Assembly: GCA_020062425.1 (NCBI GenBank)
Contig: JAGUWJ010000010.1
Span: forward strand, 1 to 63,339
From: Actinomycetota bacterium
GTDB lineage: Bacteria > Actinomycetota > Geothermincolia > Fen-727 > Anoxymicrobiaceae
Length of the DNA: 63,339 bases
Direction: 5' to 3'
Made by a program: the position numbers and the translations under genes. The notes under the pieces were generated by a model, which saw only the letters and a list, made by a program, of their open reading frames with translations, did not search any database and was not told where the DNA came from. This document shows positions 6,816 to 58,471 of the stretch, piece by piece (position 1 is the first letter of the stretch; each line of letters opens with the position of its first letter).

Positions 6816-6826
6816 CTCGTGCAAAC

Positions 6827-8230
6827 TCAGGGAAATGTGGTCTCGACAAACTCCCCCACTATGCGGCGCAGCTCGGCCGGTGGAGTAAAGCGCTTGTCGA
6901 ACATGTCCATCTCGAACCTGAGACAGGGGATTCCCGTCTGCTCTTTTATCTTGTCGCTCATGAGTTTGTTGAGCGCCCAGAAGTGTTTGCAGGCCATGTG
7001 GCCCCCGAGTATCAGCGCGTCGGCCTTGTGGCCTTTTACCACCGTCTCGAAGTCGCTGATCCACATGTCGGAGAAGCCCATTGTCTGCCTGCCCATGGGC
7101 ATGTTCATCACCCGCCAGGCCAGGCCCTCGATCATGGTCTCGACGCTGCTCGTGTCGATCATTCCGACATCCGGGTCGAAGTAGGTCAGGGTGTCCGCCA
7201 TGTACGTGACCCCGTGCTCCTCCTCCAGCCAGTCGAAGAAAGGCAGGTCGTAACACTCCCAGGTGTATCCCCAGGCGAATCGCTTCTCCTTCTTTCCTTC
7301 GGGGATCACCCCTTCGCCCTTGTCCGCTTTGGCTTTCACAGCTTCGTAGAGATTTTTGAAATAGGCCGCCGACATGGGCGTTCCGATGCCGGTGAGGAAG
7401 ATGGTGTCCGCCGGCCGGTGCCAGCCGGTGTCCGGGCAGGGCATGATCTTCTTCAGTTCCTGGGTCTTGATGAAGTACTCAACGGTCTCGTTTCCATAGC
7501 CGACGTGCTCCCTCAGCTTATCCTCATCGAGGGTGTTGCCGGTCAGCTTCTCCATCGCCTCGATCATCCTCTTGATGTCATCCATGAGGTACTTGATGCT
7601 GCGCTCGTCTCGATAATACGGTGATTCGATAGGGATCAGTGGAATATTCAGCTCGTGAGCCGTCCACTCGTACAGTTTGTTGCTGGCATCGCAAGGCGTG
7701 GTGGGCTTTAGAAGCAGGTCCGGCTTGGGGACAACTCCCATGAGCAGGAAGCCAGCGGTACCTTTCTGCGTAGAGCAAAGGTGGTCCGGATATCCCTCGG
7801 CCTCGATGCGGTCGATACCCTCCTCGCAGCCGTTGTTGTACAGAGCCGCCGTCAAACCGCATATGAGCTCGTAGCAGATGGGCATTATGCCCATGGCGAA
7901 ACAGAGTTCAACGCTGATGGCGAAGTAGTTGTAGGCGAGCGGAATCCCCGACTCGAGTCCTTCGAGCATGAAGTTGGTGTAATCAAGCATGTTCTTACAG
8001 AACGCCTCGGCACTGGGCCTGTTCTTCTCCTTGATGATGGTATCCACCAGAGCCGGCTGGATCATATCGAAATTCTCGAGCATCCCCTCTGGAAGGATGT
8101 CGTAGATCACTTCCCGGCCCCCCCAGTCCTCGAGGTTGTAAAGGCCTTCCTGGTCCAGGACGAACAGGGCCAGCTCCATTGTGGTCTTCCAGTTCTCGAA
8201 TATGGTGCGGTCCTTGTGGTTGTTTCCCAT
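6827..8230 (-). CDS. BcrB/HgdB-type D-family subunit, tandem copy 1
   Basis: Conserved Cys-containing blocks (ELICGLTAALYNNGCEEG, HLCSTQKG, TTPCD). ATG 8230 lies 8 nt after AAGGAGG; the ORF-track GTG 8239 sits inside that ribosome-binding site. Confidence 0.85.
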   Translation of the reverse strand: MGNNHKDRTIFENWKTTMELALFVLDQEGLYNLEDWGGREVIYDILPEGMLENFDMIQPALVDTIIKEKNRPSAEAFCKNMLDYTNFMLEGLESGIPLAYNYFAISVELCFAMGIMPICYELICGLTAALYNNGCEEGIDRIEAEGYPDHLCSTQKGTAGFLLMGVVPKPDLLLKPTTPCDASNKLYEWTAHELNIPLIPIESPYYRDERSIKYLMDDIKRMIEAMEKLTGNTLDEDKLREHVGYGNETVEYFIKTQELKKIMPCPDTGWHRPADTIFLTGIGTPMSAAYFKNLYEAVKAKADKGEGVIPEGKKEKRFAWGYTWECYDLPFFDWLEEEHGVTYMADTLTYFDPDVGMIDTSSVETMIEGLAWRVMNMPMGRQTMGFSDMWISDFETVVKGHKADALILGGHMACKHFWALNKLMSDKIKEQTGIPCLRFEMDMFDKRFTPPAELRRIVGEFVETTFP

Positions 8231-8235
8231 CTTGC

Positions 8236-9360
8236 TCACCTCCTTGCTATCCTCTCCATGAATGCCTCTATCCTTGTCCTGAACCTCCCGATGTCGGAGA
8301 GCATGTACTCCCTTTCCAGGGTGAGGACGGGAATGCCCATTTCCTCCAAGTCCTCTGTGAGCATCACGTTATCGGCCCCGTGGGTGTCGCAGAAGACGAT
8401 CTTCTGCAGGATGATCCCGTCCACATCCGCCCCCCGGGCCATCTCTTCGTTGAACTTGAGCCTGTTGTCGTATTCCCCGAGCATGCGTGGGCAGGGGTTG
8501 TGGTAGTAGTAACGCTTGGCTAGGGCCTGTATGGGATTGCCGTTCTCCTCGACCAGATTGAGGAAATGCCTCGAGCCGTAGCAGAGCGAATCAGTGACAA
8601 CCACTCCGCCGAGGTCCTCGATTATCTCCAGCAGATGGGGGTCATCCATGGCTGAGCCGCCCACCATGAGTCGGGCGCTGTATTCGACGTGCTCGCCGCT
8701 GCTCTCGATCTCTCCCAAAGCCTCCGCAAGCAGCTCGTTGTACCTGTCCCGGGGCATGTGGAAGGCGGACAGTACGATGCGCATGGCATCCGCCCCGCTC
8801 AAGGGCACGTCTTCAGCCTTTCTCATATCGTATAGCTTCTCGACCAGGCGCCTGCTCTCGTTGTAGACCTTGATCGCCTCTCGAACGCTATCGTCAGAGA
8901 TCCTCTTGCCGAAATTCGTGCGCAGCTGCTCCCGGAAATTGAGGATCTCCTCCTCGTACCACTTGAAGCCTCCTTCGTAGATGGAGTGGGGTACCGTTAT
9001 CATGTAGAGGTAATCCGTATTGATGTGCTTGTCCCAGATCTCGTACATCCTGCGAATCTGCTCGCATCCGTTCAGGAAGCAGAATCCGTCCAGGAAATCG
9101 TATTCCCCGGAAAGGCCAGCCTGCAGGATGCAGCGCGCGTAAGTGCAGTTGAACCTGTGCATATATACGTCAGCCAGGTTCGTCTCCGTACAGCCCCGGC
9201 ACTCCACACGGTAAGGCAGCAGCCCGCTCGCCCATATCAGTTCCTCGGGGACATATCCGCATGCCGAGCCGACTATCCGGCGCCCCGAGTCCTTCCACTC
9301 CTTGACATAGGGGTTGTCCCTTCTGTCAGGAAGCGCCAGAAGTTCCTGTAACGCACTCAT
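8236..9360 (-). CDS. BcrC/HgdA-type D-family subunit
   Basis: MSALQELL...GSACGYVPEELIWASGLLPYR...CTYARC...NGCEQIRRMYE... is typical of the HgdA/BcrC family. ATG 9360 follows GGAGGAGG. Confidence 0.8.
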   Translation of the reverse strand: MSALQELLALPDRRDNPYVKEWKDSGRRIVGSACGYVPEELIWASGLLPYRVECRGCTETNLADVYMHRFNCTYARCILQAGLSGEYDFLDGFCFLNGCEQIRRMYEIWDKHINTDYLYMITVPHSIYEGGFKWYEEEILNFREQLRTNFGKRISDDSVREAIKVYNESRRLVEKLYDMRKAEDVPLSGADAMRIVLSAFHMPRDRYNELLAEALGEIESSGEHVEYSARLMVGGSAMDDPHLLEIIEDLGGVVVTDSLCYGSRHFLNLVEENGNPIQALAKRYYYHNPCPRMLGEYDNRLKFNEEMARGADVDGIILQKIVFCDTHGADNVMLTEDLEEMGIPVLTLEREYMLSDIGRFRTRIEAFMERIARR

Positions 9361-11112: not shown

Positions 11113-12974
11113 CAGGTGGCACCGATCCTTTCCACGACGTAGTCCAGGCCCAACTCCTTCAACTTCTCCGCTGTCGGCTTCCCCGTCGCCTTGTCCCAAC
11201 CCCGGAACTCGTAATAGGCATCGAGCAGGGGCTCCAGGTCGACCACCAGGCCTTCGGCCGGTCCTTCCGGCAGCGGCTCCTCCAGGAGCCGCTTCGGCAG
11301 CGTGTCGTCGGCGCGCGAAGCGCCTTCCCGAACGTTGAAAGCTCTCGCGAGGTTATATATCCGCTCGCCCGCCGTCCTGAACTCGGCCACGTCCATGTCC
11401 CAGCCCGTCGCCGAAGCGATCATGGGGACTACCTCCTCGGCCATCAGAGCCATCCCCATGAACTTGCAGGCGCCAAGGGCGTCGAACGTGGTCAGCGCAT
11501 CCTCCATGTCCTTGACAACCTTGGCCTCCGCCGGGTTTTCCACCGTCACATCTTCAATGGTGCTTTCCTCCACGATAAGGAAGGGAATGTCCAGGAACGT
11601 GGGCCCCTGCACGTAGGCGGTGACGTGGTCGCCTCCACGGTTCGCCGTGGCGAACCCAAGCCCGGTTATCTTGGTCGCCCTGCAGTCGTAGCAGGCCAGC
11701 TCCAGGCCTTTGACGTGCATGGCGAATCTCTCGCTGCCCTGCCCCAGTTTCTCCGACACCCGCTTGGTGCCCTCCGCCAACAGGTCGCCGAGGCCTTCAC
11801 GATTTGCAATACGGTGCACCATGTCCACCATGCCGGCGGCATCGCCGAAATGCAGCTCGATCCCGCCCGCCTGTTCCGCCGTCAGGAGTCCTTTCTCGAA
11901 GCACTCCATCGCGAACGCTATGGTGCTACCCGTCGAAATGGTATCCAGGCCGTAGTCGTTGCAGATTATGGAAGCGTGCGTTATGGGCTCGAGATCGTTG
12001 ACGTCGCACATCGGGCCGAAGACCCCGACGCTCTCGTACTCCGGTCCTTCTCCCTTTGCCTTGTACGGGCCGGACTCGATTTGAGTCTCCCGTCCACACG
12101 CGATCGGACAGGCAAAGCAGGCTCTTCGCCCGGTCAGGATACTCTCGTTGATGGCCGGCCCGTTGATGTCATCAGTATAAGAGCAGACGCCCGTCTGCCA
12201 GTTCCTGGTCGGCAGGCCGCCCTTCACGTTGACCATGTCGATCACCATGACAGTGCCGTAGACCTCAAGCGTCATCTTAAGGAGGCTTTCGTTGACCAGG
12301 TCTGACGCGGCCCTCGTGGCTTCCTTGAAGGCTTCCTTGTCCGCAATCTCGATCTTCTGAGAGCCGGAGGCGGCTATGGCCTTGAGGTTCTTCGACCCCA
12401 TGACTGCCCCGAGCCCGCATCTGCCGAGTGCCCTGTGCTCATCGTTCATGATGGCGGCGTACCTTACCAGGTTCTCGCCGGCGATGCCTATGCATGACAC
12501 GTTGAACTTCTTCCCCAGGTCCTCCTTGAGCGCCGATGTCGTCTCGAAGACATTCTTGCCCCAGAGGCTTGCCGCGTCCTGAAGCCGTGCCGTGCCGTCG
12601 TCGATGACCAGGACGACCGGAGCGTCCGCCTTGCCCTCGAGGATGATGCCGTCGTATCCGGCCTGCTTCAGATCGCGGCCCCATTTGCCTCCTGAATTGG
12701 CCTCCCCCCAAAAACCGGTAAGGGGAGACTTTGCAACCGCGGAAAACCTGCCGGAACTGGGTGACGTGGTCCCCGTCAAAGGTCCGGTCATATATATCAA
12801 CTTGTTCTCCGGGCCCAGTGGATCGATGCCGGGGGGGACCTCCTCGATGAGGTACTTGGTCGCCAGGCCGCTCCCGCCGAGGAGCATGCGTGCGTCTTCT
12901 TCGGGGAGTGGCTCTTCCGATATGGTCCCGCTGGAGAGATTGACTCTCAGCACTTTTCCCATGAATCCGTACAT
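11112..12974 (-). CDS. aor: Tungsten-type aldehyde:ferredoxin oxidoreductase family protein
   Basis: N-terminus MYGFMGKVLRVNLSSG; motifs GPEYESVG, CFACPIACGRE, DTISTG, DALGACKF; 620 aa. Confidence 0.9.
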   Translation of the reverse strand: MYGFMGKVLRVNLSSGTISEEPLPEEDARMLLGGSGLATKYLIEEVPPGIDPLGPENKLIYMTGPLTGTTSPSSGRFSAVAKSPLTGFWGEANSGGKWGRDLKQAGYDGIILEGKADAPVVLVIDDGTARLQDAASLWGKNVFETTSALKEDLGKKFNVSCIGIAGENLVRYAAIMNDEHRALGRCGLGAVMGSKNLKAIAASGSQKIEIADKEAFKEATRAASDLVNESLLKMTLEVYGTVMVIDMVNVKGGLPTRNWQTGVCSYTDDINGPAINESILTGRRACFACPIACGRETQIESGPYKAKGEGPEYESVGVFGPMCDVNDLEPITHASIICNDYGLDTISTGSTIAFAMECFEKGLLTAEQAGGIELHFGDAAGMVDMVHRIANREGLGDLLAEGTKRVSEKLGQGSERFAMHVKGLELACYDCRATKITGLGFATANRGGDHVTAYVQGPTFLDIPFLIVEESTIEDVTVENPAEAKVVKDMEDALTTFDALGACKFMGMALMAEEVVPMIASATGWDMDVAEFRTAGERIYNLARAFNVREGASRADDTLPKRLLEEPLPEGPAEGLVVDLEPLLDAYYEFRGWDKATGKPTAEKLKELGLDYVVERIGAT

Positions 12975-13096
12975 CTCAGTTCCTTTCCCTTAAGAGCTCC
13001 ACGCTTTCGCCAGCTCCGCATGACCTGCCGTCACGTGCGGCCAGCAGGGTTTGAGACGGTCGAGGCCGGAGACGCCTCGCATATGGATTTCAGGGA

Positions 13097-13528
13097 CTAT
13101 TCGCCGAGGTAGCTGGCTTCAAAGGAACTGATGGAGTCCGCCACCGCCCTGATGAACTTGGCATTGCGCATAACCTTGCTCATGTCACCCTTGAGTGTGA
13201 AGATGCCCTTGACCACGCCTTCGATGAAGTCTTTCTCTCCCTTTACCACTTCCTTGAAGGCACCGTAGTCACCCGTGCACAAGAACCCCGCCTCGACCTC
13301 GGAAGGGTCTTTGAGCTCGCGCGAATCCTTGCACTTCCCGGTGCCGGGTTCGGGCTCCAGGTAAACATAGTGTGTTTCCTCCAGGCCCGACCCGGGCAAG
13401 ACCTCGAATACCCAGCTCCCGTTCCAGCCGACTCCCCACTTCGTGCCCGTTTCCGCGACTCGTTCGCTGCCGTTGATTGCTACTTTCCAGGCGTCACACC
13501 ATTCCTGAGATGGATATAGAACTGCCAT
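13097..13528 (-). CDS. SCP2 sterol-carrier-like domain protein
   Basis: 143 aa; the C-terminal part, FTLKGDMSKVMRNAKFIRAV, matches the SCP2 fold signature. Confidence 0.65.
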   Translation of the reverse strand: MAVLYPSQEWCDAWKVAINGSERVAETGTKWGVGWNGSWVFEVLPGSGLEETHYVYLEPEPGTGKCKDSRELKDPSEVEAGFLCTGDYGAFKEVVKGEKDFIEGVVKGIFTLKGDMSKVMRNAKFIRAVADSISSFEASYLGE

Positions 13529-13558
13529 TTCCCAGACCTCCTTTTCCCTGTCTTCTGC

Positions 13559-14818
13559 CTAAATGGTTTCAGTCTCGTACCAGTACCTGGCGTTCTCCAG
13601 TATCTTGAGGGCCTTTCCGCCCATCCACAGACCGATTACTTTCTGGTCCCTCCAGTGCTTCTCGATATCGCCTTCCCTCGAGTACCCGTAGGAGCCCATG
13701 AAGTCCATAGCCCGGGAACAGGCCCACTCAACTGCGGTTGTGGCGTGGACGGCCAGCCCCCTCGTCTTCAGGCAGAATTCGTCGCTCCAGGGATCCATGC
13801 CGTAGATCTCCGGGTGGTCGTGCTCTCGGATATAGGCCCAGGTCCACGCCGAGGTGGACTCGATAGCAATGGCGACATCGGAGAGCATGTCCGCGCAGAT
13901 GCTGTGCTCCTTGAGTTTCTTTCCGGCGATGACCCTCTCGTTCGTCCACTTCTTGATGATCTCGTAGACGTTCTTCATGACTCCGATGCACATGGCGGCG
14001 GAGCCTATGTTTCCCGTGCTGATGCAATGCCGCCAGTATTCCACGTCGTCCCCGGGGCCATGTGCCCTGTACCGCTTCGGCACACGCACATGGTCGAACC
14101 AGATGTCGGTGTTCATGTCCGCCGACATCCCGGCTTTCAGGTACGGCTTGCCTACCGAGACGCCTTCTGCATCGGCCGGGACGAAGATGTATGCGATGTC
14201 TTTAAGATCAGTAGAACCTGGATTCGTACTGCATACGACTCCGAAGAGATCGGCTATCTCACCTGAGTTAGTGGGCCAGATTTTGTGACCGTTTACTATC
14301 CATTCGTCCCCGTCGAGGGTAGCGCTGGTCGCGATCGTTCTGCCCTTCATTACTCCGACGTTCTCCACGTCGGCGCCGCTTGCCGGCTCCGTCATGGCAT
14401 GGCACCCCACATAGAGGTCATCGCCACAGAACTTCTCACCAAACTCTATACAGAGCTCCATGTTCCTATGCGGCTCTGCGAGGATCGGGATCAACGGCCA
14501 GACCGAACAGGCTACCGCCACGGAGAAGCCGGAGTCGATCCTGGCCAGCTCTTCGATCACAATGGCGATCATAGCCATCAACTCCGGCATATCCGTTCCG
14601 CCGGCCTCGGCGGGAAAGAAGGCAGGATTTATCCCCAGGTCTACCAGCACTTCCTTCATAAGCGGCTTGACAAGTTCGTGTTTTTGCCAGTCACCGTCGA
14701 TCTCGCGCCGGATAGGCATCAGCTTGTCTTCGGCCCACTCCCGGATGACCTTGCCAATGTCGTTCACGAAATCCGAACACCACTCCTTCGGCCGAATAAA
14801 ATCATCTATTGTCGGCAT
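13559..14818 (-). CDS. Acyl-CoA dehydrogenase family protein
   Basis: ACAD pattern (MTEPASGADV, W.TN, C-terminal helical domain). ATG 14818 follows GGAAGGAGG. Confidence 0.85.
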   Translation of the reverse strand: MPTIDDFIRPKEWCSDFVNDIGKVIREWAEDKLMPIRREIDGDWQKHELVKPLMKEVLVDLGINPAFFPAEAGGTDMPELMAMIAIVIEELARIDSGFSVAVACSVWPLIPILAEPHRNMELCIEFGEKFCGDDLYVGCHAMTEPASGADVENVGVMKGRTIATSATLDGDEWIVNGHKIWPTNSGEIADLFGVVCSTNPGSTDLKDIAYIFVPADAEGVSVGKPYLKAGMSADMNTDIWFDHVRVPKRYRAHGPGDDVEYWRHCISTGNIGSAAMCIGVMKNVYEIIKKWTNERVIAGKKLKEHSICADMLSDVAIAIESTSAWTWAYIREHDHPEIYGMDPWSDEFCLKTRGLAVHATTAVEWACSRAMDFMGSYGYSREGDIEKHWRDQKVIGLWMGGKALKILENARYWYETETI

Positions 14819-15324: not shown

Positions 15325-16704
15325 ATGCGCGCGCAGATGAAATTGACGCCCGGCGTCTCCGTTCGAGGCGCGCCATCTCTTCACCATGCCCGATTTGCCA
15401 ACCTTATGGAGATGCCTTCCGATGCGTTCCTGAGATTCCTGGAGCAGGCGGCGGAGTCAAATCCCTGCCTGGGGGTCCAACCGGGACGACAGGATTATTA
15501 CCTGGATGGGGGGCGATTGTCCCCGATTGAAGACAAAGCGGTACGAGTTCGTGATTCCGTCGACGCCGGCCGCTTCGTCTCCCGGGATAGCAGCCGCGAC
15601 GAGATCGACAGGTGCAGCGTCCCCGACCACTTCACTGGATCTTTGCGATTGTACCTGCAGTCGTCGATGCGGAAGGCGAATGGACCGGCTTTGGAGGCGG
15701 CTGCCGAGGCTGTCATTCCGTTTATCGATGACCGGGGATTCCTGAGCGAGGAGCCAGAGGAGATCGCCTCCGACAGCGGATTCTCCAAGGAGGAGATAAG
15801 CCGGGCAATCGGGGTCATCAAGTCTATCCCGCCCGGCGGGGTAGGCTCGCGCAACCTGCCCGATTTCTTGTGGTGGCAATGCCGGGGATCGAAATGGGAT
15901 ACGCCCGCCATGCATCGGTTGACCCACGACCTTCTGCGCGACGTCGCGAGGGGCAACATCTCCAGGATCCGGCGTGAGCTGCGCGTCGGCGAACAGAAGG
16001 TCCGGAGCATGGTCCAGGTACTGAAAGGCCTGCGGCCTTACCCGACCCACGGAATGGACATTCAGCCTTCTGACTCGCCAGGGCTTGCCCGACTGTCACC
16101 CGACTTCTGGGTCCGCTGTCCGGGAGACGGAAGCTGTATGCTCGAGATGCGCGAGCCGGACATCGAAATCCAGCACATTACGGCCCCAACTGATCCCAGT
16201 TCCGTATCGAGGGCGCCCTCAGGCCAGAAACCGGAATCGGAATGGGATTTGAAGGCCCGGTCGCTCGCACTGGAGGCGCGAGACCTGCGGGAAGTAGCAA
16301 TAGAGCGAGGGCGCGTATTACGCAGAGTCGCGGCAGCCCTCATCGAGGTGCAAAAGGAGTGGCTGTCGGCCAGGAACGATTATCTCGAGCCGCTGACGGA
16401 ATCGGAGCTGGCGGAGCAGCTCGACATCCCCTTGAGCACGGTGAGCCGCGCTCTGAAGGACAGGTATGTCGCCTGTCCCCGCGGCACCTATCCGCTCAAG
16501 CACCTCCTTTCACGAGGCCTGTCCGCCGCGGACAACATCGGCGTCTCGAAGGATTTCGTATGCCAGCTGATCGCCAGACTCGACCGCGAAGCAGAAGGAA
16601 GGAAGATCACCGACGCGGAGATGGCGAAGCTTCTGGAGCAGCAGGGAATACATGTAGCCAGGCGAACCGTCAACAAATACCGCAACCAGATGAGTGGATT
16701 TTGA
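15325..16704 (+). CDS. rpoN: RNA polymerase sigma-54 factor, divergent form
   Basis: C-terminal HTH and RpoN box (ARRTVNKYRNQM); core-binding-like region; short, Gln-poor region I. ATG 15325 follows GAAGGGGGA. Confidence 0.8.
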   Translation: MRAQMKLTPGVSVRGAPSLHHARFANLMEMPSDAFLRFLEQAAESNPCLGVQPGRQDYYLDGGRLSPIEDKAVRVRDSVDAGRFVSRDSSRDEIDRCSVPDHFTGSLRLYLQSSMRKANGPALEAAAEAVIPFIDDRGFLSEEPEEIASDSGFSKEEISRAIGVIKSIPPGGVGSRNLPDFLWWQCRGSKWDTPAMHRLTHDLLRDVARGNISRIRRELRVGEQKVRSMVQVLKGLRPYPTHGMDIQPSDSPGLARLSPDFWVRCPGDGSCMLEMREPDIEIQHITAPTDPSSVSRAPSGQKPESEWDLKARSLALEARDLREVAIERGRVLRRVAAALIEVQKEWLSARNDYLEPLTESELAEQLDIPLSTVSRALKDRYVACPRGTYPLKHLLSRGLSAADNIGVSKDFVCQLIARLDREAEGRKITDAEMAKLLEQQGIHVARRTVNKYRNQMSGF

Positions 16705-37542: not shown

Positions 37543-39492
37543 ATGAGAGGCAATCATCCCGGGAGGAAAACAGTTGCGAGGACCGTTGTCGGCGTCGTCG
37601 TCGCGTTGTTCTTGACGGTTCTTTTCACGAGCGGGGCTATGGCCGTGACGCCTGTTACGGAGCCGGACCCGCAGTCTATTACCCCGGACCAGGGTGCCAG
37701 GGGCACCACTGTTAACCCCACCATTACCGGAGTCAGCCTGGGCCTAGTGAACAATGTGTACCTGTCCAGGTCCGGCGAGACCGATATCAAAGCCGAGGCG
37801 GGCAGCGTCACCGCTTCCGGTACCCAGGTCTCCTTCACGCTGGAGATACCGGCGGGCGCCGCACTTGGTGACTGGGACGTGGAAGTATGGGAACCCGCGG
37901 CGGGTATTCCTTTCGGGACGAACATCGACGATTACCACGGTATTATCTACGACGGCTTCACCATCACCCAATCCGCTTCGCCCAACGCTCCGGTGATAAC
38001 CTCGATATCGCCTGCAAGAGGCGCGGTGGGGACGGGCGTTCTGATAAGCGGCAAGAACTTCGGGTCATCCCGGGGGAACTCTTACGTGAACTTCGGCTCC
38101 TCCAAAGCTTCGAGCTATGCCTCCTGGAGCAGTTCTCAGATAAGCTGCACGGTACCCGTGCTTGACACCGGGCCTGTCAGCGTGACCGTCACAACGAAGT
38201 ACGGAACCTCGAATTCAAAGACGTTCACGATTACCTTTCCTATCTGGTACCTGGCGGAGGGATCGACCGCCTGGGGATACTCGGCCTACATATCGATCGA
38301 GAATCCCAACGACGAGGCGGTCACCGCCAAGGTTACGTATATGACAGAAAGCGGGCCGGAGGAAAGGCCTGACGTCCAGCTTTCCCCGATGTCTCAGGCG
38401 ACTCTAAACCCCGAATCGGACATCGGACAGAAGAACTTCTCCACGATGGTCGAGTGCCGTGAGGGGAAGACTATTGCGGTTGACCGCACCATGTACTGGA
38501 CCGGCGAGGGTGCCGCGAGCCAGGAAGGGCACTGCTCCGTGGGAGTCCCGGCCCCCGACACGACCTGGTACCTCGCTGAGGGCTCATCCGAGTGGGGATT
38601 CGATTGCTGGCTGCTGATTCAGAACCCTAACGACGAAGAGGCCACGTGCCAGGTGACCTATATGATAGAAGGGTCCGCTCCGGTGACCCTGGAGAAGAAG
38701 GTTCCGGGGAATTCTCGCAAGACCTACAATATGGAGACGGATATCGGCAAGAGGGACGCGTCCATAAAGGTAGAGTCCGACATCCCGGTCATCCCCGAGC
38801 GTGCCATGTACAGGAACAGCCGCAGGGAAGGTCACGACTCCATCGGGACCATTTCGCCAGCGTTGGAGTACTACCTTGCCGAGGGGACTACGGCGTACGG
38901 GTTCACCACCTATATCCTCATACAGAACCCGAACGACAGCGAGACCGAGGTTAACCTGACCTACATGACTACCCAGGGCGAAGTGCAGCACCCTGAAAAC
39001 CCGATACGCATGCCGGCCAACTCGAGGAAAACCGTGAGGGTCAACGATTTCATGCCGGGCAAGGACTTCTCGACAAGGGTAGTCGGCTCGCAGGTTATCA
39101 TCGCCGAGCGCGCGATGTATTGGGACGCCGGACTCGGTGAGGCATGTCACGACTCGATCGGGGTCAGCGAAGGACACAAGACCTTCTATCTGCCCGACGG
39201 GCAGACGTCGGACGGTCGTGAGACCTATACCCTGGTCCAGAACCCCAACGGAGAGGCTGTGACGGTCGAGGTGACTTACCTCACACCGGACGGAACGGCG
39301 AACGTGACTTTCGAGGACACGGTCGCTGCGAACTCGCGTCAGACCTATGTCATGGCGGACAAGATCCTCGACGGCAGGGCTTCGGTGATGGTCACCAGCA
39401 AGACCGCGGGGAAAGACATTATTGTCGAGCGAGCAATGTACTGGAACGCCAGGGGCGCCGGCACAGGTACGCTGGGCGGCTTTGAGGACTGA
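37543..39492 (+). CDS. Secreted protein: signal peptide, two IPT/TIG-like domains, four WY(L/F)AEG-type repeats
   Basis: Repeats start at aa 235, 342, 444 and 548 (WYLAEGSTAWGY, WYLAEGSSEWGF, YYLAEGTTAYGF, FYLPDGQTSDGR). Each ends in (D/E)R(A/T)MYW. Confidence 0.85.
   Translation: MRGNHPGRKTVARTVVGVVVALFLTVLFTSGAMAVTPVTEPDPQSITPDQGARGTTVNPTITGVSLGLVNNVYLSRSGETDIKAEAGSVTASGTQVSFTLEIPAGAALGDWDVEVWEPAAGIPFGTNIDDYHGIIYDGFTITQSASPNAPVITSISPARGAVGTGVLISGKNFGSSRGNSYVNFGSSKASSYASWSSSQISCTVPVLDTGPVSVTVTTKYGTSNSKTFTITFPIWYLAEGSTAWGYSAYISIENPNDEAVTAKVTYMTESGPEERPDVQLSPMSQATLNPESDIGQKNFSTMVECREGKTIAVDRTMYWTGEGAASQEGHCSVGVPAPDTTWYLAEGSSEWGFDCWLLIQNPNDEEATCQVTYMIEGSAPVTLEKKVPGNSRKTYNMETDIGKRDASIKVESDIPVIPERAMYRNSRREGHDSIGTISPALEYYLAEGTTAYGFTTYILIQNPNDSETEVNLTYMTTQGEVQHPENPIRMPANSRKTVRVNDFMPGKDFSTRVVGSQVIIAERAMYWDAGLGEACHDSIGVSEGHKTFYLPDGQTSDGRETYTLVQNPNGEAVTVEVTYLTPDGTANVTFEDTVAANSRQTYVMADKILDGRASVMVTSKTAGKDIIVERAMYWNARGAGTGTLGGFED
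38239..39450 (+). repeat. Array of four ~105 aa protein-coding repeats (FAEG-type module)
   Basis: Periodicity counted by hand on the translation. Confidence 0.8.
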
Positions 39493-39515
39493 TCTTCTGG
39501 CGAGCGGTCAGGTCG

Positions 39516-40592
39516 TCATAAGATCCTGACCGCGCCGGAGAGGTCGTTTCGCTCGGACAGCGACGATATCCTCACTACGTCACCGGAGTGGGGCGCATGT
39601 ATGTACTGACCCTGCCCGATGTAGATGCCGACGTGTCCCCACCCGTGGAAGCCGACGATGTCACCGGGCTTCAGCTCGCCCGGGGTGACCGGGGTGCCGC
39701 ACCTCGCCTGTGCGTAGGAGCTATGCGGGAGCGCTACGCCCGCGGCAGTCCCGTAGCAGTACTGGGTGAGCCCGGAGCAGTCGAAAGAAGATGGGCCGGA
39801 CCCGGCGCTAACGTACGGTTTCCCGAGCTGCATGTGCGCTAACGCTACGACCTTCTCTTTCGAGTCCTTCGGGCCGGGCTTCCCGTAGGCGGCGGCCGCG
39901 GCGATGGGCCTGTCGGATTCTACCGTGGTGTTGATATCGAATCCGGTGATGTACGCGCCCGCGTTCACCGAGAGCCTGCTCTGTCCCTTGATCTCGAGGG
40001 CTGTTCCGGCGGGGGCGCCGAGGTCCGAGCTGAAAGCTACGTTTACCCGCGCGGGTCTCTTGCTGGGATTGTGGAGAAGGACCCACGTCTCGCACCCTTC
40101 TCCTGCTGTAGAGCCACCGGTGAAGCGCCAGCTCGAGCCTGTCCGGGCGGTGCCGGGCGAGGCCCGGTCCAGGCCGCGGGCCGGGTTCTTCACCCTGGTC
40201 CAGGCGTATACAGCCTGGTCGGACTTGAGGGCAACCGCGACGTCGAAGCTCTCGACCTGTCCTCCCACGTTCACGCAGGCCATGCTGGAGGCTTGGACTT
40301 GCGCGCTGAGGGCTCCGGCCTCGCCTCCGCTGGTGTGGAAGGCCAGAGAGACGGTTGCTTCTTCCGAGCCGGGGTTCTCGAGCATTACCCAGGTCTCGAA
40401 CCCTCCGGCGGTGGCGCTGTCCGGCAGGTACCAGGTCTTCCTAGGGCTTCCCGAACTCGAATCCAGCCCCGATACGTCAGCCGATGCGCGAGCGACCGGA
40501 ACTGCGGCCATCAGTATCGAGAAGAGCGCTAGAACAGCAGGGATTATCACCATACGTTTTAGCTTCACTTTTCTGGGCGTCTTCGTTTTCAT
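39516..40592 (-). CDS. Secreted NlpC/P60 (C40) peptidase with two degenerate FAEG-type repeats
   Basis: Signal peptide; WYLPDSATAGGFETWVMLENPG and WRFTGGSTAGEGCETWVLLHNPS repeat heads; catalytic FDCSGLTQY and GHVGIYIG blocks. ATG 40592 follows AAGGAGA. Confidence 0.85.
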   Translation of the reverse strand: MKTKTPRKVKLKRMVIIPAVLALFSILMAAVPVARASADVSGLDSSSGSPRKTWYLPDSATAGGFETWVMLENPGSEEATVSLAFHTSGGEAGALSAQVQASSMACVNVGGQVESFDVAVALKSDQAVYAWTRVKNPARGLDRASPGTARTGSSWRFTGGSTAGEGCETWVLLHNPSKRPARVNVAFSSDLGAPAGTALEIKGQSRLSVNAGAYITGFDINTTVESDRPIAAAAAYGKPGPKDSKEKVVALAHMQLGKPYVSAGSGPSSFDCSGLTQYCYGTAAGVALPHSSYAQARCGTPVTPGELKPGDIVGFHGWGHVGIYIGQGQYIHAPHSGDVVRISSLSERNDLSGAVRIL

Positions 40593-41031
40593 TACACATC
40601 TCCTTAATGCATGAAGCCGTCCGCGCGGGCGCAGGCCGGCAACATCGCGCTCGGTTGAATGCCCCCGACTCGCCCGGAAACCGGGACAGGGCATGGTGAA
40701 AACAGGAAGAAATCACTGGAAAAATCGATGGGATTCTCCTTGAAGGGTTAAGAGACTAGAGTGTGCTGGACTTCGGTGGCGTTGGCTTGTGGATGCTCAA
40801 CACAAAGACCCGCACCGGTTCCGTTTTGCTCGACATATGCGCAAACGCTCTATTCATAATGTGCACTCTTCAGGGAGCAGGGCGTCTCGCTCGCGGCGCT
40901 CCAGCACTCCCGCCAGACCCTTTCCGTCGTGGCGAACCATTGACAACGACATAAAGATTCGCCCGTTTCGGGGTAAATACCTTCCCAAAGGTCGAGGAGT
41001 ATACAGCAGTTCGGCCGCGCGCGCAAACGAA

Positions 41032-41913
41032 TCACTCTAATGGGTTACCGTGCTGTATGAACTCGAGCATCTCGTTGACAGCCTCCGGAGAGGAAGCCCA
41101 GGGCGTTGGCTCGGTGGGGAACCAGTCGCGTTTCCTGAACTCCTCTTCTGGCCAGGGGAACGGCAGTTCGATTACCGTCCCGGGAGTATCGATGGTCTCC
41201 AGCGCATCCAGCATGCTCCGGAGTATCTCCAGGTGGGTGTCACCGTCTCCGGGGCGGCCCCAGATCATCCCGAAGGGGAACTCTATGGCGGCGGCGCGTG
41301 GCACTCCTATCTTCTCCGTCACGAAAGGCATGTTGGTGAGCGAGATGGTCACTAGGCCGCTCTTCTCGAGGACCCGCTGTACCAGCCCCACGGACTGGTT
41401 GCACAAGGGTCACCCGGACGAGAGGAGCACCACGTCCACGTCCATCTCGCGCAGACGGTCGGCCATGAGCGGCGCGGTCTCCCTGAGGAGGGTGCCGACC
41501 TTCGGCTGATAACCCATTATGGTCAGGTGTTTCTCCGATATCGCACCTATCCTGCCTTCGGCGAGTACCTGCTCAAGCGCGGCGAGCGGCATCATGCATC
41601 CGACGTCGTCCAGGACGTGATCGTTGCGGTAGTGAAGGTGCGCGGCGCGCAAGTCACCCTGTGAGATGTCACGAGGTATCTCGCGGAACGAGGGGTCGCC
41701 CCATAGGGGCTCCCGCCGCTCCCGGTCAAGGTCGAACGGTCGGTCACACTCCTGGTAGAGCCCTCCCGATGAGACCAACGCGACAGTGCACTCCTGGAGA
41801 GGTCTGCCGAGCGGAGTCCAGGGGATCTCCTCAGCGCTCATGTCGGTGTACGGCCAGACCTTGAGCGATTCCGCGAGTGTCCTTGGCATGAACTTGAAGC
41901 TGTCTACCGTCAT
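41032..41913 (-). CDS. GrdB-family (selenoprotein B-like) protein with an in-frame TGA, putative selenocysteine
   Basis: ORFs 41410-41973 and 41032-41406 are in the same frame, separated only by TGA (41410-41412). The joined sequence reads ...VVLLSSG-U-PLC-NQSVG..., a UxxC motif. ATG 41913 follows AGGAGG. Confidence 0.6.
41375..41403 (-). other. Candidate bacterial SECIS hairpin
   Basis: mRNA ACCAGUC-CGUGG-GGCUGGU (7 bp including one G:U pair, 5 nt loop containing GU) starts 11 nt after the UGA; 3 further base pairs lie below an internal loop. Confidence 0.4.
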
Positions 41914-42003
41914 CTGGTGACCTCCTTTGGCGGGACGACGACATTTTATCATCTGCTCGAACCCGTGTATCAACTTTCGTTCTCAACCCGTTTCACAAGC
42001 GGA

Positions 42004-43146
42004 ATGATAATGCCGATAGAGGTTGTGGAAGCAAAACCACTGGCTGGAGTGGCAATGAGCGACACGTTCGATGGGGCGGAGCCCGTCCGCATCTTGATCT
42101 TCGCTTTCGACCTGGAAGGCCGCCTGCTCGCCTGGAACGACCATGTGGTCCGGGTGACGGGTTACGCCGACCCGGAGTTGCGCGACATGAGTTTCACCGA
42201 CCTTCTGGCAGGAGGCGTCGAATCGATAGGCGAGGTCATCGCCAGCGGATCGGACGCGCGGGAGATCGCGTTGAGAGCGGAGCTGGTCCGCAAGGACGGG
42301 AGCAGGGAGCCTTACGAGTTCCAGGTGGGACCGCTCAGGGACCACGACGTTGTAACTCCGGGCATAACGGTCATAGGCACCGACATCAGCGTCCGCAGTG
42401 ACATGCTGGATGAGTTGACACAGACCCTGTCCGAGAAGGCGGAAGTCGAGGAGCACCTCGAGGAGCTGGAAAACCTCTTTGCCGTGGCCGCCCACGAGCT
42501 GCGCCACCCGGCTACCATATTCAAGGGTTACTCGACGCTGTTGCTCGACATGAAGGGGGATCCAGACCCGAAGGTCCTCGAGGAGGCCTTGCGCTCCATC
42601 GACTCCTCCGCGGACAGGCTCGTCCACATGGTGGAGGAACTCTTCGAGTCGGCGCTCATCGAGCGCCAGGAGATGGAGCTCGAGTACCGGGAGGTGTTCC
42701 CATCGTCGCTGATCGACTCAGCAATGGAGCGGGTGGTCACGCTGGGGTTCGACCTCAAGTACGCGGTGCGCCCGTTCGATGGTGAGCCGTCGAGGATGAC
42801 GGTCGACCCGGTCCGGCTGCAGGAGGTGCTGGCCATTCTTATCGAGAACGCGGCCAAGTACACTCCTGAGGGCGAAACGGTGGAGATCTGGTTCGAACAG
42901 GACGACGGGGGTACCGTGCTGACCGTCGCCGACAGGGGACCCGGCGTGCCGGAGAAGGACCGCGAGAGGATATTCGAGAGGTTTTACCAGGTCGAGGACG
43001 TCATGCACCACTCCAAACCTGGCATCGGCCTCGGCCTGCATATAGCGAGGTACATCGTCGACGCCCACGGCGGCTGGATCAAGATGGAGCCCAGGGACGG
43101 CGGCGGCACACTGTTCTCCTTCATGGTGCCCGTGAAACAACGCTAG
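42004..43146 (+). CDS. Cytoplasmic PAS-domain sensor histidine kinase, no adjacent response regulator
   Basis: H-box AAHELRHPAT, N-box ENAAKYT, G1 DRGPGVP, G2 GIGLGLHIA; no TM segment. The start could be 42004 or 42010. Confidence 0.8.
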   Translation: MIMPIEVVEAKPLAGVAMSDTFDGAEPVRILIFAFDLEGRLLAWNDHVVRVTGYADPELRDMSFTDLLAGGVESIGEVIASGSDAREIALRAELVRKDGSREPYEFQVGPLRDHDVVTPGITVIGTDISVRSDMLDELTQTLSEKAEVEEHLEELENLFAVAAHELRHPATIFKGYSTLLLDMKGDPDPKVLEEALRSIDSSADRLVHMVEELFESALIERQEMELEYREVFPSSLIDSAMERVVTLGFDLKYAVRPFDGEPSRMTVDPVRLQEVLAILIENAAKYTPEGETVEIWFEQDDGGTVLTVADRGPGVPEKDRERIFERFYQVEDVMHHSKPGIGLGLHIARYIVDAHGGWIKMEPRDGGGTLFSFMVPVKQR

Positions 43147-56134: not shown

Positions 56135-58471
56135 ATGAAGCGAATCACCACAGCAACCGTCATGGCATTACTGGTCATCCTGGCTCTCCCGGTCGCGGCG
56201 TTCCCGGCATGGAACGGTGGGCACATTGTCGCCGGCTGTCCGTCGGCGGCCAGGACATGGTACTTCGCGGAGGGCACAACCCGCAGCGGCTTCAACGAGT
56301 GGGTCTGCCTGCTCAACCCGAACGAGGCAGCGACCACCGCCGACTTGAAGTACATGCTGGCGGACGGCCAGACCATCGATAAGTCTTACTCTCTTCAGGG
56401 GAACAGCCGGACGACGGTGGACGTGAACTCAGACGTCGGCGCCGGAAAAGACGTATCCATCAAGATCGACGCCGCAGCTCCCGTAGTGGCCGAGCGCCCG
56501 ATCTACTTCCGTTACAACGGCACGCTCACGGGCGGCCACACGGTTCTCGGGGCCTCTGCTCCGCGCACGGAGTGGTACTTCGCTGAAGGGTCGTGCCGTC
56601 CCGGGTTCGACACCTACGTCTGCATTCAGAACCCCTCAGTATCGGACGCGCGCGTGAAGGTGACTTACATGCTCGGGTCCGGCGGTGTCGAAACTAAGGA
56701 GCTCGAAGTGGGGAAGCGGTCGAGGTCCACCGTTGTATCAAAGGAACAGCTGGGCGAAGGAGACGATCCCGCCCACGACTTCTCGATCAAGGTCGAATCA
56801 CTGGACGGATCCCCCGTGGTTGCCGAGCGCCCCATGTACTTCGCCTACAAGGGTGCTTGGACCGGCGGCCACGACGTGATGGGCGCGGCGGCTCCCGCCA
56901 GGACCTTCTACTTCGCAGAAGGTTCGTGCCGCCCCGGCTTCGATCCGTACATCTGCATCCAGAACCCGGGGGCCGCACTTGCACGTGTCAAGGTAACGTA
57001 CATGCTCGGGACCGGCGAGACGCGCACCCAGTCGCTCACCGTGGGAAAGAGGTCGCGCGCTACGGTCGTTGTGAAACAGCTTCTCGGGGAGTACGACGAC
57101 CAGGCCCATGACTTCTCCGCGCGCGTCGAGACCACAAACGGCACTACGATTATCGCCGAACGCCCCATGTACTTCGCCTACAAGGGTGCCTGGACCGGCG
57201 GCCACGACGTTGTTGGCGCACCTGCCCCCGCCAGGACCTTCTACTTTGCGGAAGGGACGTGCCGCCCCGGCTTTGATCCGTACATCTGCATCCAGAACCC
57301 TGGGGCCTCGCCCGCGGAGGTCAACATCACCTACCTGCTGGGAGACGGGGGTAGCACCACCCGGTCGCTCGCCATCGCGGCCGCCTCCCGGCAGACCGTA
57401 GAGGTGAAGCAGGTGCTGGGCGAGGCCAACGACGACTCCCACGATTTCTCATTGAGGGTCGAAGCCCTGGAGGGCGGGAAGATAGTCGTAGAGCGGCCCA
57501 TGTACTTCGACTACTACAGCACCGCGCGCTGGAGCCTCACCGCCGTGGGTGACGTGAACCTCGGTGGAGACGTATCCCCCACGCTGGCGGCTCGAGGATG
57601 GGCCTGGCCCTGGTCGACCGTGGGCGACCTGCTGCGCTCCACGACACTCACCTTCGCGAACCTGGAGTGCACCATGTCTTACACGGGGTCTCCAGTCCCC
57701 GGCAAGACGTTCACCTTCCGGGGGGACCCCGCGGCGCTCGCGGCCATGAGGGATGATGGAGGTGTGGACGTGGTGTCGCAAGCGAACAACCACGCCCGCG
57801 ACTACGGTGCACAGTCACTGCTGGACAGCCTTTCCTACCTCGACGCGGCCGGGATAAAGCACTGTGGTGCGGGGGCGGACTACGCCTCGGCGTACAGGCC
57901 GGCGTATCTCGACGCCAACGGGCTCCGCGTCGCCTTCCTCGCCTACGACGAGATCGGTTACTCGAGCTGGTACGCGGACACCGGCTTCCCCGGCGTGTGT
58001 GACGCCACCAACACCGGCCAGCTGGCTCAGGACGTGCGAGCGGCGAGGGAGGCTGCGGACATGGTCGTGGTCTCGTTCCACTGGGGCACCGAGCGCAAGA
58101 CCACGCCCGACCCCATACAGACGTCGCTCGCCCGCCTCGCCATCGACAACGGGGCCGACCTGGTGCTGGGTCACCACCCGCACGTGGCGCAGGGTTTCGA
58201 GTTCTATAACGGCAAGCTCATCGCCAACTCGTTGGGGAACTTCGTGTTCAACCCCGGCAGCGAACAGGGACGCTATACCATCCTGACGAGGTTCGACATG
58301 GACTCGCGGGGATTCGTCGGCGCCTCCGTCCGCCCGGTCTATATCAGCAACTGTAGACCCCAGCTCATGGGGGGCGCGGAAGGGGACGCCTGGATATCGC
58401 AGGTGGCTGCGCTCACCAGGGCGCTGGGCATCGGCGCCCGGGTCGAGGACGGGGTCATGTACTTCCCCTGA
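56135..58471 (+). CDS. Secreted protein: four FAEG-type repeats fused to a CapA/PgsA-like metallophosphatase-fold domain
   Basis: Signal peptide; repeat heads WYFAEGTTRSGFNEW, WYFAEGSCRPGFDTY, FYFAEGSCRPGFDPY, FYFAEGTCRPGFDPY. C-terminal FANLEC...NNHARDYG...GHHPHV blocks are typical of CapA. Confidence 0.85.
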   Translation: MKRITTATVMALLVILALPVAAFPAWNGGHIVAGCPSAARTWYFAEGTTRSGFNEWVCLLNPNEAATTADLKYMLADGQTIDKSYSLQGNSRTTVDVNSDVGAGKDVSIKIDAAAPVVAERPIYFRYNGTLTGGHTVLGASAPRTEWYFAEGSCRPGFDTYVCIQNPSVSDARVKVTYMLGSGGVETKELEVGKRSRSTVVSKEQLGEGDDPAHDFSIKVESLDGSPVVAERPMYFAYKGAWTGGHDVMGAAAPARTFYFAEGSCRPGFDPYICIQNPGAALARVKVTYMLGTGETRTQSLTVGKRSRATVVVKQLLGEYDDQAHDFSARVETTNGTTIIAERPMYFAYKGAWTGGHDVVGAPAPARTFYFAEGTCRPGFDPYICIQNPGASPAEVNITYLLGDGGSTTRSLAIAAASRQTVEVKQVLGEANDDSHDFSLRVEALEGGKIVVERPMYFDYYSTARWSLTAVGDVNLGGDVSPTLAARGWAWPWSTVGDLLRSTTLTFANLECTMSYTGSPVPGKTFTFRGDPAALAAMRDDGGVDVVSQANNHARDYGAQSLLDSLSYLDAAGIKHCGAGADYASAYRPAYLDANGLRVAFLAYDEIGYSSWYADTGFPGVCDATNTGQLAQDVRAAREAADMVVVSFHWGTERKTTPDPIQTSLARLAIDNGADLVLGHHPHVAQGFEFYNGKLIANSLGNFVFNPGSEQGRYTILTRFDMDSRGFVGASVRPVYISNCRPQLMGGAEGDAWISQVAALTRALGIGARVEDGVMYFP
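56255..57518 (+). repeat. FAEG-type repeat array; units 2-4 are very similar at the nucleotide level
   Basis: Long near-identical stretches, for example 56823-56970 versus 57160-57305. Confidence 0.8.

What the first reader, a model, noticed from the sequence alone, without database searches (positions are those of the whole stretch)
41032..41913. Orphan GrdB-like gene with an in-frame UGA in a UxxC motif and a downstream hairpin: candidate selenoprotein
Two ORFs in the same frame are separated only by TGA 41410-41412. Read through, the protein is about 293 aa with ...DVVLLSSG-U-PLC-NQSVGLV..., a redox-type Sec-x-x-Cys motif at the position where the selenoprotein B family carries its Sec.
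Eleven nt after the UGA, the mRNA can form ACCAGUC/CGUGG/GGCUGGU.
TGA is a genuine stop elsewhere, for example at the end of the AOR gene, so this is not a recoded genetic code.
No grdA, grdC/D/E, prd or thioredoxin genes are adjacent. This is therefore not a glycine or proline reductase locus, and the substrate is unknown.
Basis: partly seen in the sequence, partly recalled or inferred. Interest (0 to 1): 0.6.

Follow-up and report, generated by a model that had tools for sequence, protein, structure and literature searches.

The report
Stand-alone PrdB-like selenoprotein gene
The two adjacent reading frames are one real gene for a 293-residue selenocysteine-containing enzyme related to subunit B of proline and glycine reductases; the family is already catalogued and widespread, so this is a correct but ordinary catch, and its substrate is still unknown.

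Summary
On the minus strand, 41913-41032 is a single 293-codon gene with an in-frame UGA (41412-41410) in the motif SSG-U-PLC.

The UGA is a selenocysteine codon:
- 78 of 79 related loci from at least 10 phyla keep TGA at this column, and the frame stays open for 116-135 more codons.
- Synonymous sites in the downstream hairpin are constrained to pair, while loop sites vary freely.
- AlphaFold2 folds the read-through protein as one domain (pLDDT 96).
- The genome has a selD-selA-selB-tRNA-Sec cluster, and TGA ends 29 of 50 long ORFs in the window.
- U168 and C171 align with the Sec and Cys of a genuine GrdB that sits next to GrdE in another genome.

The protein is closest to PrdB (TIGR04483, 151 bits) but falls below the equivalog cut-off of 300. 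No PrdA/GrdE or GrdA was found, no PrdC-model hit reaches its cut-off, and no neighbour is conserved across 80 loci.

The family has been catalogued since 2005-2008 as environmental "proline reductase PrdB" UxxC selenoproteins. This scan has already noted stand-alone PrdB-like genes of this kind on other DNA (51 notes in at least 50 genomes). Novelty is low and the substrate is unknown.

The parts
41032..41913 (-). Complete gene for the stand-alone PrdB-like selenoprotein (293 codons plus the TGA stop at 41034-41032)
   Evidence: Translation with TGA=U. TIGR04483 E = 3e-44 and PF07355 33 bits. One-domain AlphaFold2 model, pLDDT 96.1, pTM 0.94.
41921..41926 (-). Shine-Dalgarno AGGAGG, 7 nt upstream of the ATG at 41913
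   Evidence: Read directly from the sequence. Homologues also have 166-168 codons before the Sec codon, which favours this start over the in-frame ATG at 41952.
41410..41412 (-). UGA codon 168, read as selenocysteine
   Evidence: TGA at this column in 78 of 79 related loci. It aligns with the in-frame TGA of a GrdE-adjacent GrdB in G044.
41401..41403 (-). Cys171 codon, the presumed resolving cysteine of the U-P-x-C motif
   Evidence: Invariant in 79 sequences. It aligns with the first Cys of the GrdB UxxCxxC motif.
41381..41399 (-). SECIS upper stem-loop: 8 bp (ACCAGUCC / GGGCUGGU) with a GUG triloop, 10 nt after the UGA
   Evidence: Fold, pair counts and synonymous-codon constraint in the stem but not in the loop.
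41372..41410 (-). Extended SECIS fold, including a lower helix beneath the upper stem
   Evidence: Minimum-energy and centroid structure, -19.3 kcal/mol. Conservation of the lower helix was not tested.

Best explanation
This is one gene for a stand-alone, PrdB-like selenoenzyme.

Shown here:
- The UGA at codon 168 sits in a conserved U-P-x-C motif.
- It is followed by a hairpin under RNA-level selection, at the spacing expected of a bacterial SECIS.
- The genome encodes SelA, SelB, SelD and tRNA-Sec.
- The read-through product models as one compact domain.

Inferred: SelB-GTP carrying Sec-tRNA(Sec) binds the hairpin while the ribosome is at the UGA and inserts selenocysteine, giving a 293-residue protein.

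Inferred by homology to PrdB and GrdB: Sec168 lies in the loop between a beta-strand and the N-terminus of a helix and acts as the nucleophile. Cys171 then attacks to form a Se-S bond, which a thiol reductant re-reduces. The likely chemistry is reductive cleavage of a carbon-heteroatom bond, or a selenol/thiol redox reaction, on a small polar substrate held by the invariant charged residues (E65, D73, R77, H92, H94, D103, E183, R206).

Unlike proline and glycine reductases, it works without a pyruvoyl-bearing PrdA/GrdE subunit and without GrdA. It is therefore not a D-proline or glycine reductase, and its substrate is unknown.
For: - Gene anatomy.
- Family assignment: TIGR04483 E = 3e-44, PF07355 over its cut-off.
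- Sec machinery clustered on contig C13; selD itself contains a TGA.
- TGA conserved in 78 of 79 loci across Actinomycetota, Chloroflexota, Acidobacteriota, Gemmatimonadota, Spirochaetota, Thermodesulfobacteriota, Nitrospirota, Nitrospinota, Methylomirabilota and Lentisphaerota.
- Downstream frame open for 116-135 codons and conserved as well as the upstream part.
- Hairpin: 86.9% of cells paired against 18-54% slid; stem synonymous sites fixed while loop sites are free. A second hairpin class with a different sequence, 6 nt further downstream, occurs in a distinct Chloroflexota clade.
- AlphaFold2 gives one domain, pLDDT 96.1 and pTM 0.94, with U168 between strand 161-165 and helix 171-184.
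- U168 and C171 align with U349 and C352 of a GrdB-type protein (TIGR01918, 504 bits) encoded next to a GrdE-like gene.
- No PrdA/GrdE or GrdA, and no PrdC-model hit over its cut-off, in the genome. The PF09338 search does ring in G044, where the hits lie more than 1.6 Mb from that genome's PrdB-like gene, and finds nothing in four other large carrier assemblies.
- No conserved neighbour in 81 loci by two methods.
- C. difficile PrdB has Sec at position 151 and its U151C form is inactive (PMC11229817). That fits the absence of Cys forms here.
Against: - No direct evidence of selenium incorporation or of expression.
- Hairpin energy alone is unremarkable (z = -1.84). The paralogue's hairpin is weaker still (z = 0.09).
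- Strict compensatory changes are few: 2 pairs and 7 cells in class A, 1 pair in class B. The stem overlaps conserved amino acids, so the RNA argument rests mainly on synonymous-site bias among related sequences.
- The genome is 93.5% complete, so a missing partner gene cannot be fully excluded. PF04723 (GrdA) and TIGR04480 (PrdA) had no positive control.
- The catalytic mechanism is purely by analogy.
- No genuine PrdB sequence was available for direct alignment.
Confidence: 0.88

Rival explanations
1. The TGA is a real stop: there are two separate genes, or only a truncated 167-residue product is made.
For: Gene callers produce 167-aa proteins for nearly all homologues. TGA is the commonest stop codon in the window.
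Against: The downstream frame is open for 116-135 codons and equally conserved in 79 loci. The downstream piece has no RBS or conserved start of its own. The strand-Sec-helix unit and the whole fold span the TGA at pLDDT 96. The hairpin is under selection. The Sec column matches GrdB's Sec.
Confidence: 0.03
2. It is a genuine D-proline or glycine-type reductase B subunit whose PrdA/GrdE partner lies elsewhere or in the unassembled 6.5% of the genome.
For: The best model hit is PrdB. The genome is incomplete. One carrier genome (G044) does have GrdE-type genes elsewhere.
Against: 151 bits against the equivalog cut-off of 300, and TIGR01918 also below cut-off. No PF09338 or TIGR04480 hit in the genome. 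Four other large carrier assemblies lack PF09338, and in G044 each GrdE-type gene has its own candidate B-subunit ORF next to it, one of them confirmed as GrdB-type. No conserved neighbour in 81 loci. On the tree GrdB sits on a very long branch away from this family.
Confidence: 0.05
3. It is a pseudogene or an assembly or sequencing error that created a nonsense codon.
For: A single in-frame stop in a metagenome-assembled genome.
Against: The same TGA is present in 78 of 79 independent assemblies from many phyla, in 13 further relatives' genomes and in the genome's own paralogue. There are no other stops or frameshifts.
Confidence: 0.01
4. The UGA is decoded as another residue (Trp, Gly or Cys) through a reassigned code or near-cognate read-through, not as Sec.
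For: One relative has Gly at this column (L031). No direct selenium evidence exists.
Against: TGA terminates well-defined genes such as AOR and sigma-54. A complete Sec machinery is present. The SECIS-type hairpin is conserved at the correct spacing. The position is homologous to the experimentally established Sec of the PrdB/GrdB enzymes (PMC11229817).
Confidence: 0.02

Closest known systems
Environmental 'Proline reductase PrdB' UxxC selenoprotein family (Zhang, Fomenko and Gladyshev 2005, PMC1088965; Zhang and Gladyshev 2008, PMC2398784). Also listed as 'proline reductase' in Anaeromyxobacter and Geobacter (PMC1794560).
   Same: Pfam PF07355 domain, Sec in a UxxC motif, abundant in environmental bacteria outside the Stickland-fermenting clostridia, and far more Sec forms than Cys forms.
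   Different: Nothing essential. This is a further member, from an Actinomycetota-related MAG. Those papers name the family after proline reductase; the passages I read do not discuss whether a PrdA partner is present.
PrdB, the 26-kDa selenoprotein subunit of clostridial D-proline reductase (TIGR04483; Kabisch et al. 1999; PMC11229817)
   Same: The best-scoring model (E = 3e-44) covers residues 31-253. Similar core size. Sec at the equivalent place (U151 in C. difficile, about profile position 150 here). UxxC motif. Cys substitution is apparently not tolerated.
   Different: 151 bits against the cut-off of 300. Extra sequence of about 30 residues at the N-terminus and about 40 at the C-terminus. 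No PrdA, and no PrdC-model hit over its cut-off. PrdD, PrdE, PrdH and PrdR were not searched. No conserved operon.
GrdB/GrdF/GrdH, the 47-kDa selenoprotein B of glycine, sarcosine and betaine reductases (TIGR01918; example fetched here: G044, L108 8576-9877)
   Same: Homologous C-terminal catalytic region (BLASTP E = 2e-14). Sec and the following Cys align exactly. H92, D103, G134, E183 and R206 are shared.
   Different: Lacks the GrdB N-terminal domain of about 200 residues and the second Cys of UxxCxxC. No GrdE or GrdA found; GrdC and GrdD were not searched genome-wide and do not appear among the neighbours. TIGR01918 score is 31 against a cut-off of 65.

Membership tests
Pfam PF07355 (GRDB superfamily) | Score above the gathering threshold | tested here: met
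   33.1 bits against 22. The match covers residues 27-166 and ends at model position 346 of 347, just before the Sec.
D-proline reductase PrdB (TIGR04483 equivalog) | Score above the equivalog cut-off (300 bits) | tested here: not met
   151.1 bits for the window protein, 189.3 for its paralogue, 127.2 for L091.
D-proline reductase PrdB | Selenocysteine in a UxxC motif at the catalytic position | tested here: met
   U168-P-L-C171. Aligned directly to the Sec and Cys of a genuine GrdB. Correspondence to PrdB U151 is inferred from HMM coordinates only (PMC11229817).
D-proline reductase PrdB | Pyruvoyl proprotein partner PrdA encoded with it | tested here: not met
   No PF09338 or TIGR04480 hit in the genome. 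None among the window neighbours. The PF09338 search rings in G044 as a positive control.
D-proline reductase PrdB | PrdC electron-transfer protein | tested here: not met
   The best TIGR04481 hit is 213 bits against a cut-off of 490. These are RnfC-like proteins on other contigs.
Glycine/sarcosine/betaine reductase selenoprotein B (TIGR01918 subfamily) | Score above the cut-off (65.45), length of about 430 aa with the N-terminal domain, UxxCxxC motif | tested here: not met
   31.3 bits. The protein is 293 aa and the motif is U-PLC-NQS without a second Cys. For contrast, the G044 GrdB scores 504 bits.
Glycine reductase complex | GrdA selenoprotein A and GrdE partners | tested here: not met
   No PF04723 and no PF09338 hit. 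PF04723 had no positive control, and the genome is 93.5% complete.
Bacterial selenoprotein gene | Conserved in-frame UGA with coding sequence continuing downstream | tested here: met
   78 of 79 loci; 116-135 further codons; equal conservation on both sides.
Bacterial selenoprotein gene | SECIS stem-loop shortly after the UGA with G/U in the apical loop | tested here: met
   8-bp stem 10 nt after the UGA with a GUG loop. Pairing and synonymous-site constraint. An alternative hairpin in class B. Not run through bSECISearch.
Bacterial selenoprotein gene | selA, selB, selC and selD present in the genome | tested here: met
   Contig C13: tRNA-Sec 11191-11282, selB 11313-13196, selA 13246-14616, selD 15396-16316.
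Bacterial selenoprotein gene | Selenium actually incorporated | not testable with these tools
   Needs 75Se labelling or mass spectrometry.

The most novel reading that the evidence does not exclude
The stand-alone PrdB-like proteins are self-sufficient selenoenzymes. They would carry out a reductive carbon-heteroatom cleavage, or another selenol-dependent reaction, on an unrecognised substrate without any pyruvoyl partner. That would be a reaction type distinct from the known Stickland reductases. The near-complete absence of Cys forms (0 of 79 loci) would then reflect an obligate need for a selenium nucleophile.
Probability: 0.3. Interest if true: 0.55.

Novelty: new member of a known kind. 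Interest (0 to 1): 0.22.

Why it matters
For annotation, the gene is routinely split into two hypothetical ORFs, or labelled "D-proline reductase", in genomes that cannot reduce proline. Both labels are wrong.

For biology, this is one of the most widespread bacterial selenoprotein families: 398 hits among GTDB species representatives in one scan. It keeps Sec almost without exception and spreads across phyla, yet it has no known substrate, partner or solved structure. A biochemical assignment would fill a long-standing gap in the prokaryotic selenoproteome. This particular locus adds no new clue towards that.

Tried and rejected
- Conserved-neighbour search for a functional partner. blastp clustering of ORFs of at least 90 aa and tblastn of ORFs of at least 50 aa over 81 loci found only a MalT/LuxR-like regulator in about 10 Chloroflexota loci and generic ABC or acyl-CoA genes. 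A '118-aa upstream neighbour' cluster turned out to be the C-terminal half of the gene itself.
Not seen in these loci or in the window.
- Solved-structure relatives. None by sequence, by profile or by Foldseek against the PDB (best E = 0.078, only faint flavodoxin-like or B12-domain resemblance). None in BFVD.
- SelA co-occurrence among relatives. Not informative, because 36 of 41 genomes have selA.
- Thermodynamic stability as evidence for the hairpin. Weak, so it was replaced by comparative tests.
- Read and transcript support.
- Direct alignment with a genuine PrdB. No such sequence could be fetched, so a GrdE-adjacent GrdB from G044 was used instead.
- Residue distances around U168. Model coordinates are not exposed.
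- One search failed on a coordinate slip and was resent.

Full report
**Observation**

Reading the minus strand of 41032-41913 with TGA=U gives one frame of 293 codons. It starts at ATG 41913, seven bases after AGGAGG. It contains one in-frame TGA at 41412-41410 (codon 168) and ends at TGA 41034-41032. An in-frame ATG 13 codons further upstream (41952) has no RBS. Homologues have 166-168 codons before the Sec codon, so 41913 is the likely start.

**What the protein is**

- NCBIfam gives D-proline reductase PrdB (TIGR04483) as the best model: E = 3e-44, 151 bits, residues 31-253 on model positions 19-233 of 238. This is well below the equivalog cut-off of 300.
- The GrdB-type models hit much more weakly. 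The subfamily model TIGR01918 scores 31 bits against a cut-off of 65.
- Pfam GRDB (PF07355) is over threshold, and its match ends at residue 166, two residues before the Sec.
- The protein is therefore a PrdB-sized member of the GrdB/PrdB superfamily, not an equivalog of either enzyme.

**Is the UGA a selenocysteine codon? Genome capacity**

The window's genome (2.51 Mb, 214 contigs, 93.5% complete) carries a cluster on contig C13:
- tRNA-Sec, 75.6 bits with Rfam; ARAGORN gives anticodon TCA
- selB, 358 bits
- selA, 578 bits
- selD, 353 bits, itself containing one in-frame TGA

TGA is not reassigned. It closes 29 of the 50 ORFs of at least 250 codons in the window.

**Is the UGA a selenocysteine codon? 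Comparative evidence**

- A protein search returned 486 relatives. Of the best 120, 113 are 164-226 residues long (mostly 166-170) and match only the part of the query before the TGA. They are cut there by gene callers.
- A scan of one genome per GTDB species found 398 encoding loci, and the best 80 were fetched.
- In 78 of the 79 loci that reach the site, the codon is TGA followed by Pro-x-Cys. The exception, L031, has Gly-Ser.
- In every locus the frame continues for 116-135 codons and then ends on TAA, TAG or TGA.
- Identity to the window protein is the same after the TGA as before it (medians 0.40 and 0.41).
- Among 40 relatives of the window's genome, 13 carry the gene, and every full-length match has the TGA.
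- The window's genome has a second, diverged paralogue on contig C9 (16981-17697) reading TPG-U-LTC-HQSVGLI.

**The hairpin**

- A gapless alignment of 80 sequences from 3 nt before the UGA to 48 nt after it shows two classes.
- Class A (70 sequences, including the window) has an 8-bp stem starting 10 nt after the UGA, with a G-U-N triloop.
- In class A 86.9% of cells pair, against 18-54% when partners are slid by 1-3 columns. None of 500 shuffles reaches that percentage paired.
- The stem overlaps conserved residues (N/C-Q/W-S-V-G-L-V), so I tested synonymous sites:

| Codon | Position | Observed | Background in the same genes |
|---|---|---|---|
| Ser +6 | stem | TCC 61/70 | 25% |
| Gly +8 | stem | GGA/GGG 68/69 | 43% |
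| Leu +9 | stem | CTG 60/61 | 45% |
| Val +7 | loop | all four codons used | - |
| Val +10 | just after the stem | all four codons used | - |

- They are the signature of selection on RNA pairing.
- Class B (10 Chloroflexota sequences reading U-PDC-A/C-x-N) has lost that hairpin. Instead it has a 6-7-bp stem of different sequence 6 nt further downstream, with a CGUGCU loop: 91% paired against 13-51% slid, with one compensatory pair. It forms its own clade.
- Folding energy of the window's hairpin alone is unremarkable: -19.3 kcal/mol, z = -1.84, 11 of 200 shuffles as good. The case rests on the comparative data.

**One protein, not two**

AlphaFold2 with the 79-sequence alignment gives a single compact alpha/beta domain, mean pLDDT 96.1 and pTM 0.94. 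U168 lies in the loop between strand 161-165 and helix 171-184, with C171 at the helix N-terminus. The fold has no significant match in the PDB by Foldseek (best E = 0.078, with faint resemblance to flavodoxin-like B12-binding domains) or by sequence or profile search.

**Homology of the Sec position**

- The PF09338 (GrdE/PrdA) search rang twice in G044, the genome of locus L091, so I fetched those regions.
- In L108, a 434-residue GrdB-type gene lies directly after a GrdE/GrdG-like gene. It scores 504 bits on TIGR01918 and carries the motif U-GTC-TRC.
- BLASTP against the window protein (E = 2e-14) aligns U168 with its U349 and C171 with its C352. H92, D103, G134, E183 and R206 are also shared.
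- In C. difficile PrdB the Sec is U151 and the U151C protein is inactive (PMC11229817). The HMM coordinates place U168 at about that position.

**No partners**

- The window's neighbours are a divergent PAS histidine kinase, a 3-hydroxyacyl-CoA dehydrogenase, an NlpC/P60 protein and TIG/DUF5719 proteins.
- The genome has no PF09338, TIGR04480 (PrdA) or PF04723 (GrdA) hit. It has only RnfC-like sub-threshold hits to the PrdC model.
- PF09338 is also absent from four other large carrier assemblies. In G044 its two hits lie more than 1.6 Mb from the PrdB-like gene, and each has its own candidate B-subunit ORF beside it; the one in L108 is confirmed as GrdB-type.
- Two neighbourhood analyses over 81 loci found no conserved neighbour.

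**Evolution**

On a maximum-likelihood tree the window protein sits in a fully supported 7-member clade. Its companions are two Actinomycetota, two Spirochaetota, a deltaproteobacterium and a Methanothrix bin. This indicates horizontal spread, or mis-binning in the case of the last one. GrdB joins on a very long branch.

**Mechanism**

- Shown: the elements needed for SelB-dependent Sec insertion are all present and conserved.
- Inferred by homology: Sec168 is the nucleophile and Cys171 the resolving thiol of a reductase. The invariant residues E65, D73, R77, H92, H94, D103, E183 and R206 mostly lie at or just beyond strand ends in the model's secondary structure. They probably form the substrate pocket.
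- The superfamily cleaves C-N bonds. NCBIfam's fluoroacetate reductase subunit model (FarE, NF053623) points to C-F cleavage as well. A reductive carbon-heteroatom cleavage is therefore the best guess. Without a pyruvoyl subunit, the substrate-activation step must differ.

**Comparison with what is known, and novelty**

- "Proline reductase PrdB" UxxC selenoproteins were the third most abundant selenoprotein family in the Sargasso Sea, with 42 Sec forms and 1 Cys form (PMC1088965).
- In GOS there were 235 Sec forms and 110 Cys forms (PMC2398784).
- A "proline reductase" selenoprotein was listed for Anaeromyxobacter and Geobacter in 2006 (PMC1794560).
- This scan has already noted stand-alone PrdB-like genes of this kind on other DNA: 51 notes in at least 50 genomes.
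- The finding is correct, but it is a new member of a known kind.

**Not done**

No read-level or transcript evidence was obtained.

Noticed in passing
G000 contig C9:16981-17697 (+), locus L100 about 1411-2211: A second, diverged PrdB-like selenoprotein gene in the same genome (33% identity, motif TPG-U-LTC-HQSVGLI, TIGR04483 189 bits). It lies between an NAD-dependent epimerase gene and a macro-domain gene. Its post-UGA hairpin is weak (5 bp, z = 0.09).
   Followed up: partly
G000 contig C13:11191-16316 (loci L001, L002, L008, L011): A compact tRNA-Sec / selB / selA / selD cluster on the minus strand. selD itself carries one in-frame TGA, so SelD is probably a selenoprotein too.
   Followed up: partly
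L031:5824-6783 (Anaerolineae MAG; = P0052), and database proteins P0060, P0063, P0068, P0088, P0107, P0121: Rare full-length relatives carry Gly, Arg or Ser, never Cys, at the Sec column while keeping C171. They could be inactive, differently functioning, or sequencing variants. Only L031 was checked at DNA level (GGG).
   Followed up: partly
L024 (contig assigned to a Methanothrix sp. bin): This archaeal-bin contig carries a gene that is sister to the one in a deltaproteobacterial MAG (L021; 100/100 support). This suggests mis-binning or recent transfer.
   Followed up: no
L108:7255-9880 and L107 about 5700-8572 (genome G044, OZ244653.1): Two GrdE/GrdB-type loci in one genome. In L108 the B subunit (U-GTC-TRC) scores 487-498 bits on the glycine and sarcosine models and 430 bits on the betaine model, all below their specific cut-offs (602, 800 and 775). 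Its substrate class is therefore unassigned. The same genome also has the stand-alone PrdB-like gene.
   Followed up: partly
window 37543-40694 and 56135-58471; L019:916-2751: Several secreted-looking proteins with DUF5719 plus TIG, NlpC/P60, PGA_cap or ice-binding-like domains lie near the gene, both in the window and in the related Actinomycetota locus L019. This looks like lineage-specific cell-envelope genes and local synteny, not a functional link.
   Followed up: no
window 41914-42060: The divergent PAS histidine kinase ORF, as listed, starts at GTG 41917, only 3 nt from the selenoprotein's ATG. Its true start is probably further downstream. A terminator-like hairpin was reported on the minus strand at 42053-42036.
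   Followed up: no
about 10 Chloroflexota loci (for example L028:6999-9719, L060:3167-5896, L083:987-3644): A MalT/LuxR-type regulator of about 900 aa lies within 0.1-2.8 kb of the PrdB-like gene in one Chloroflexota subgroup. It is the only recurrent neighbour found.
   Followed up: partly
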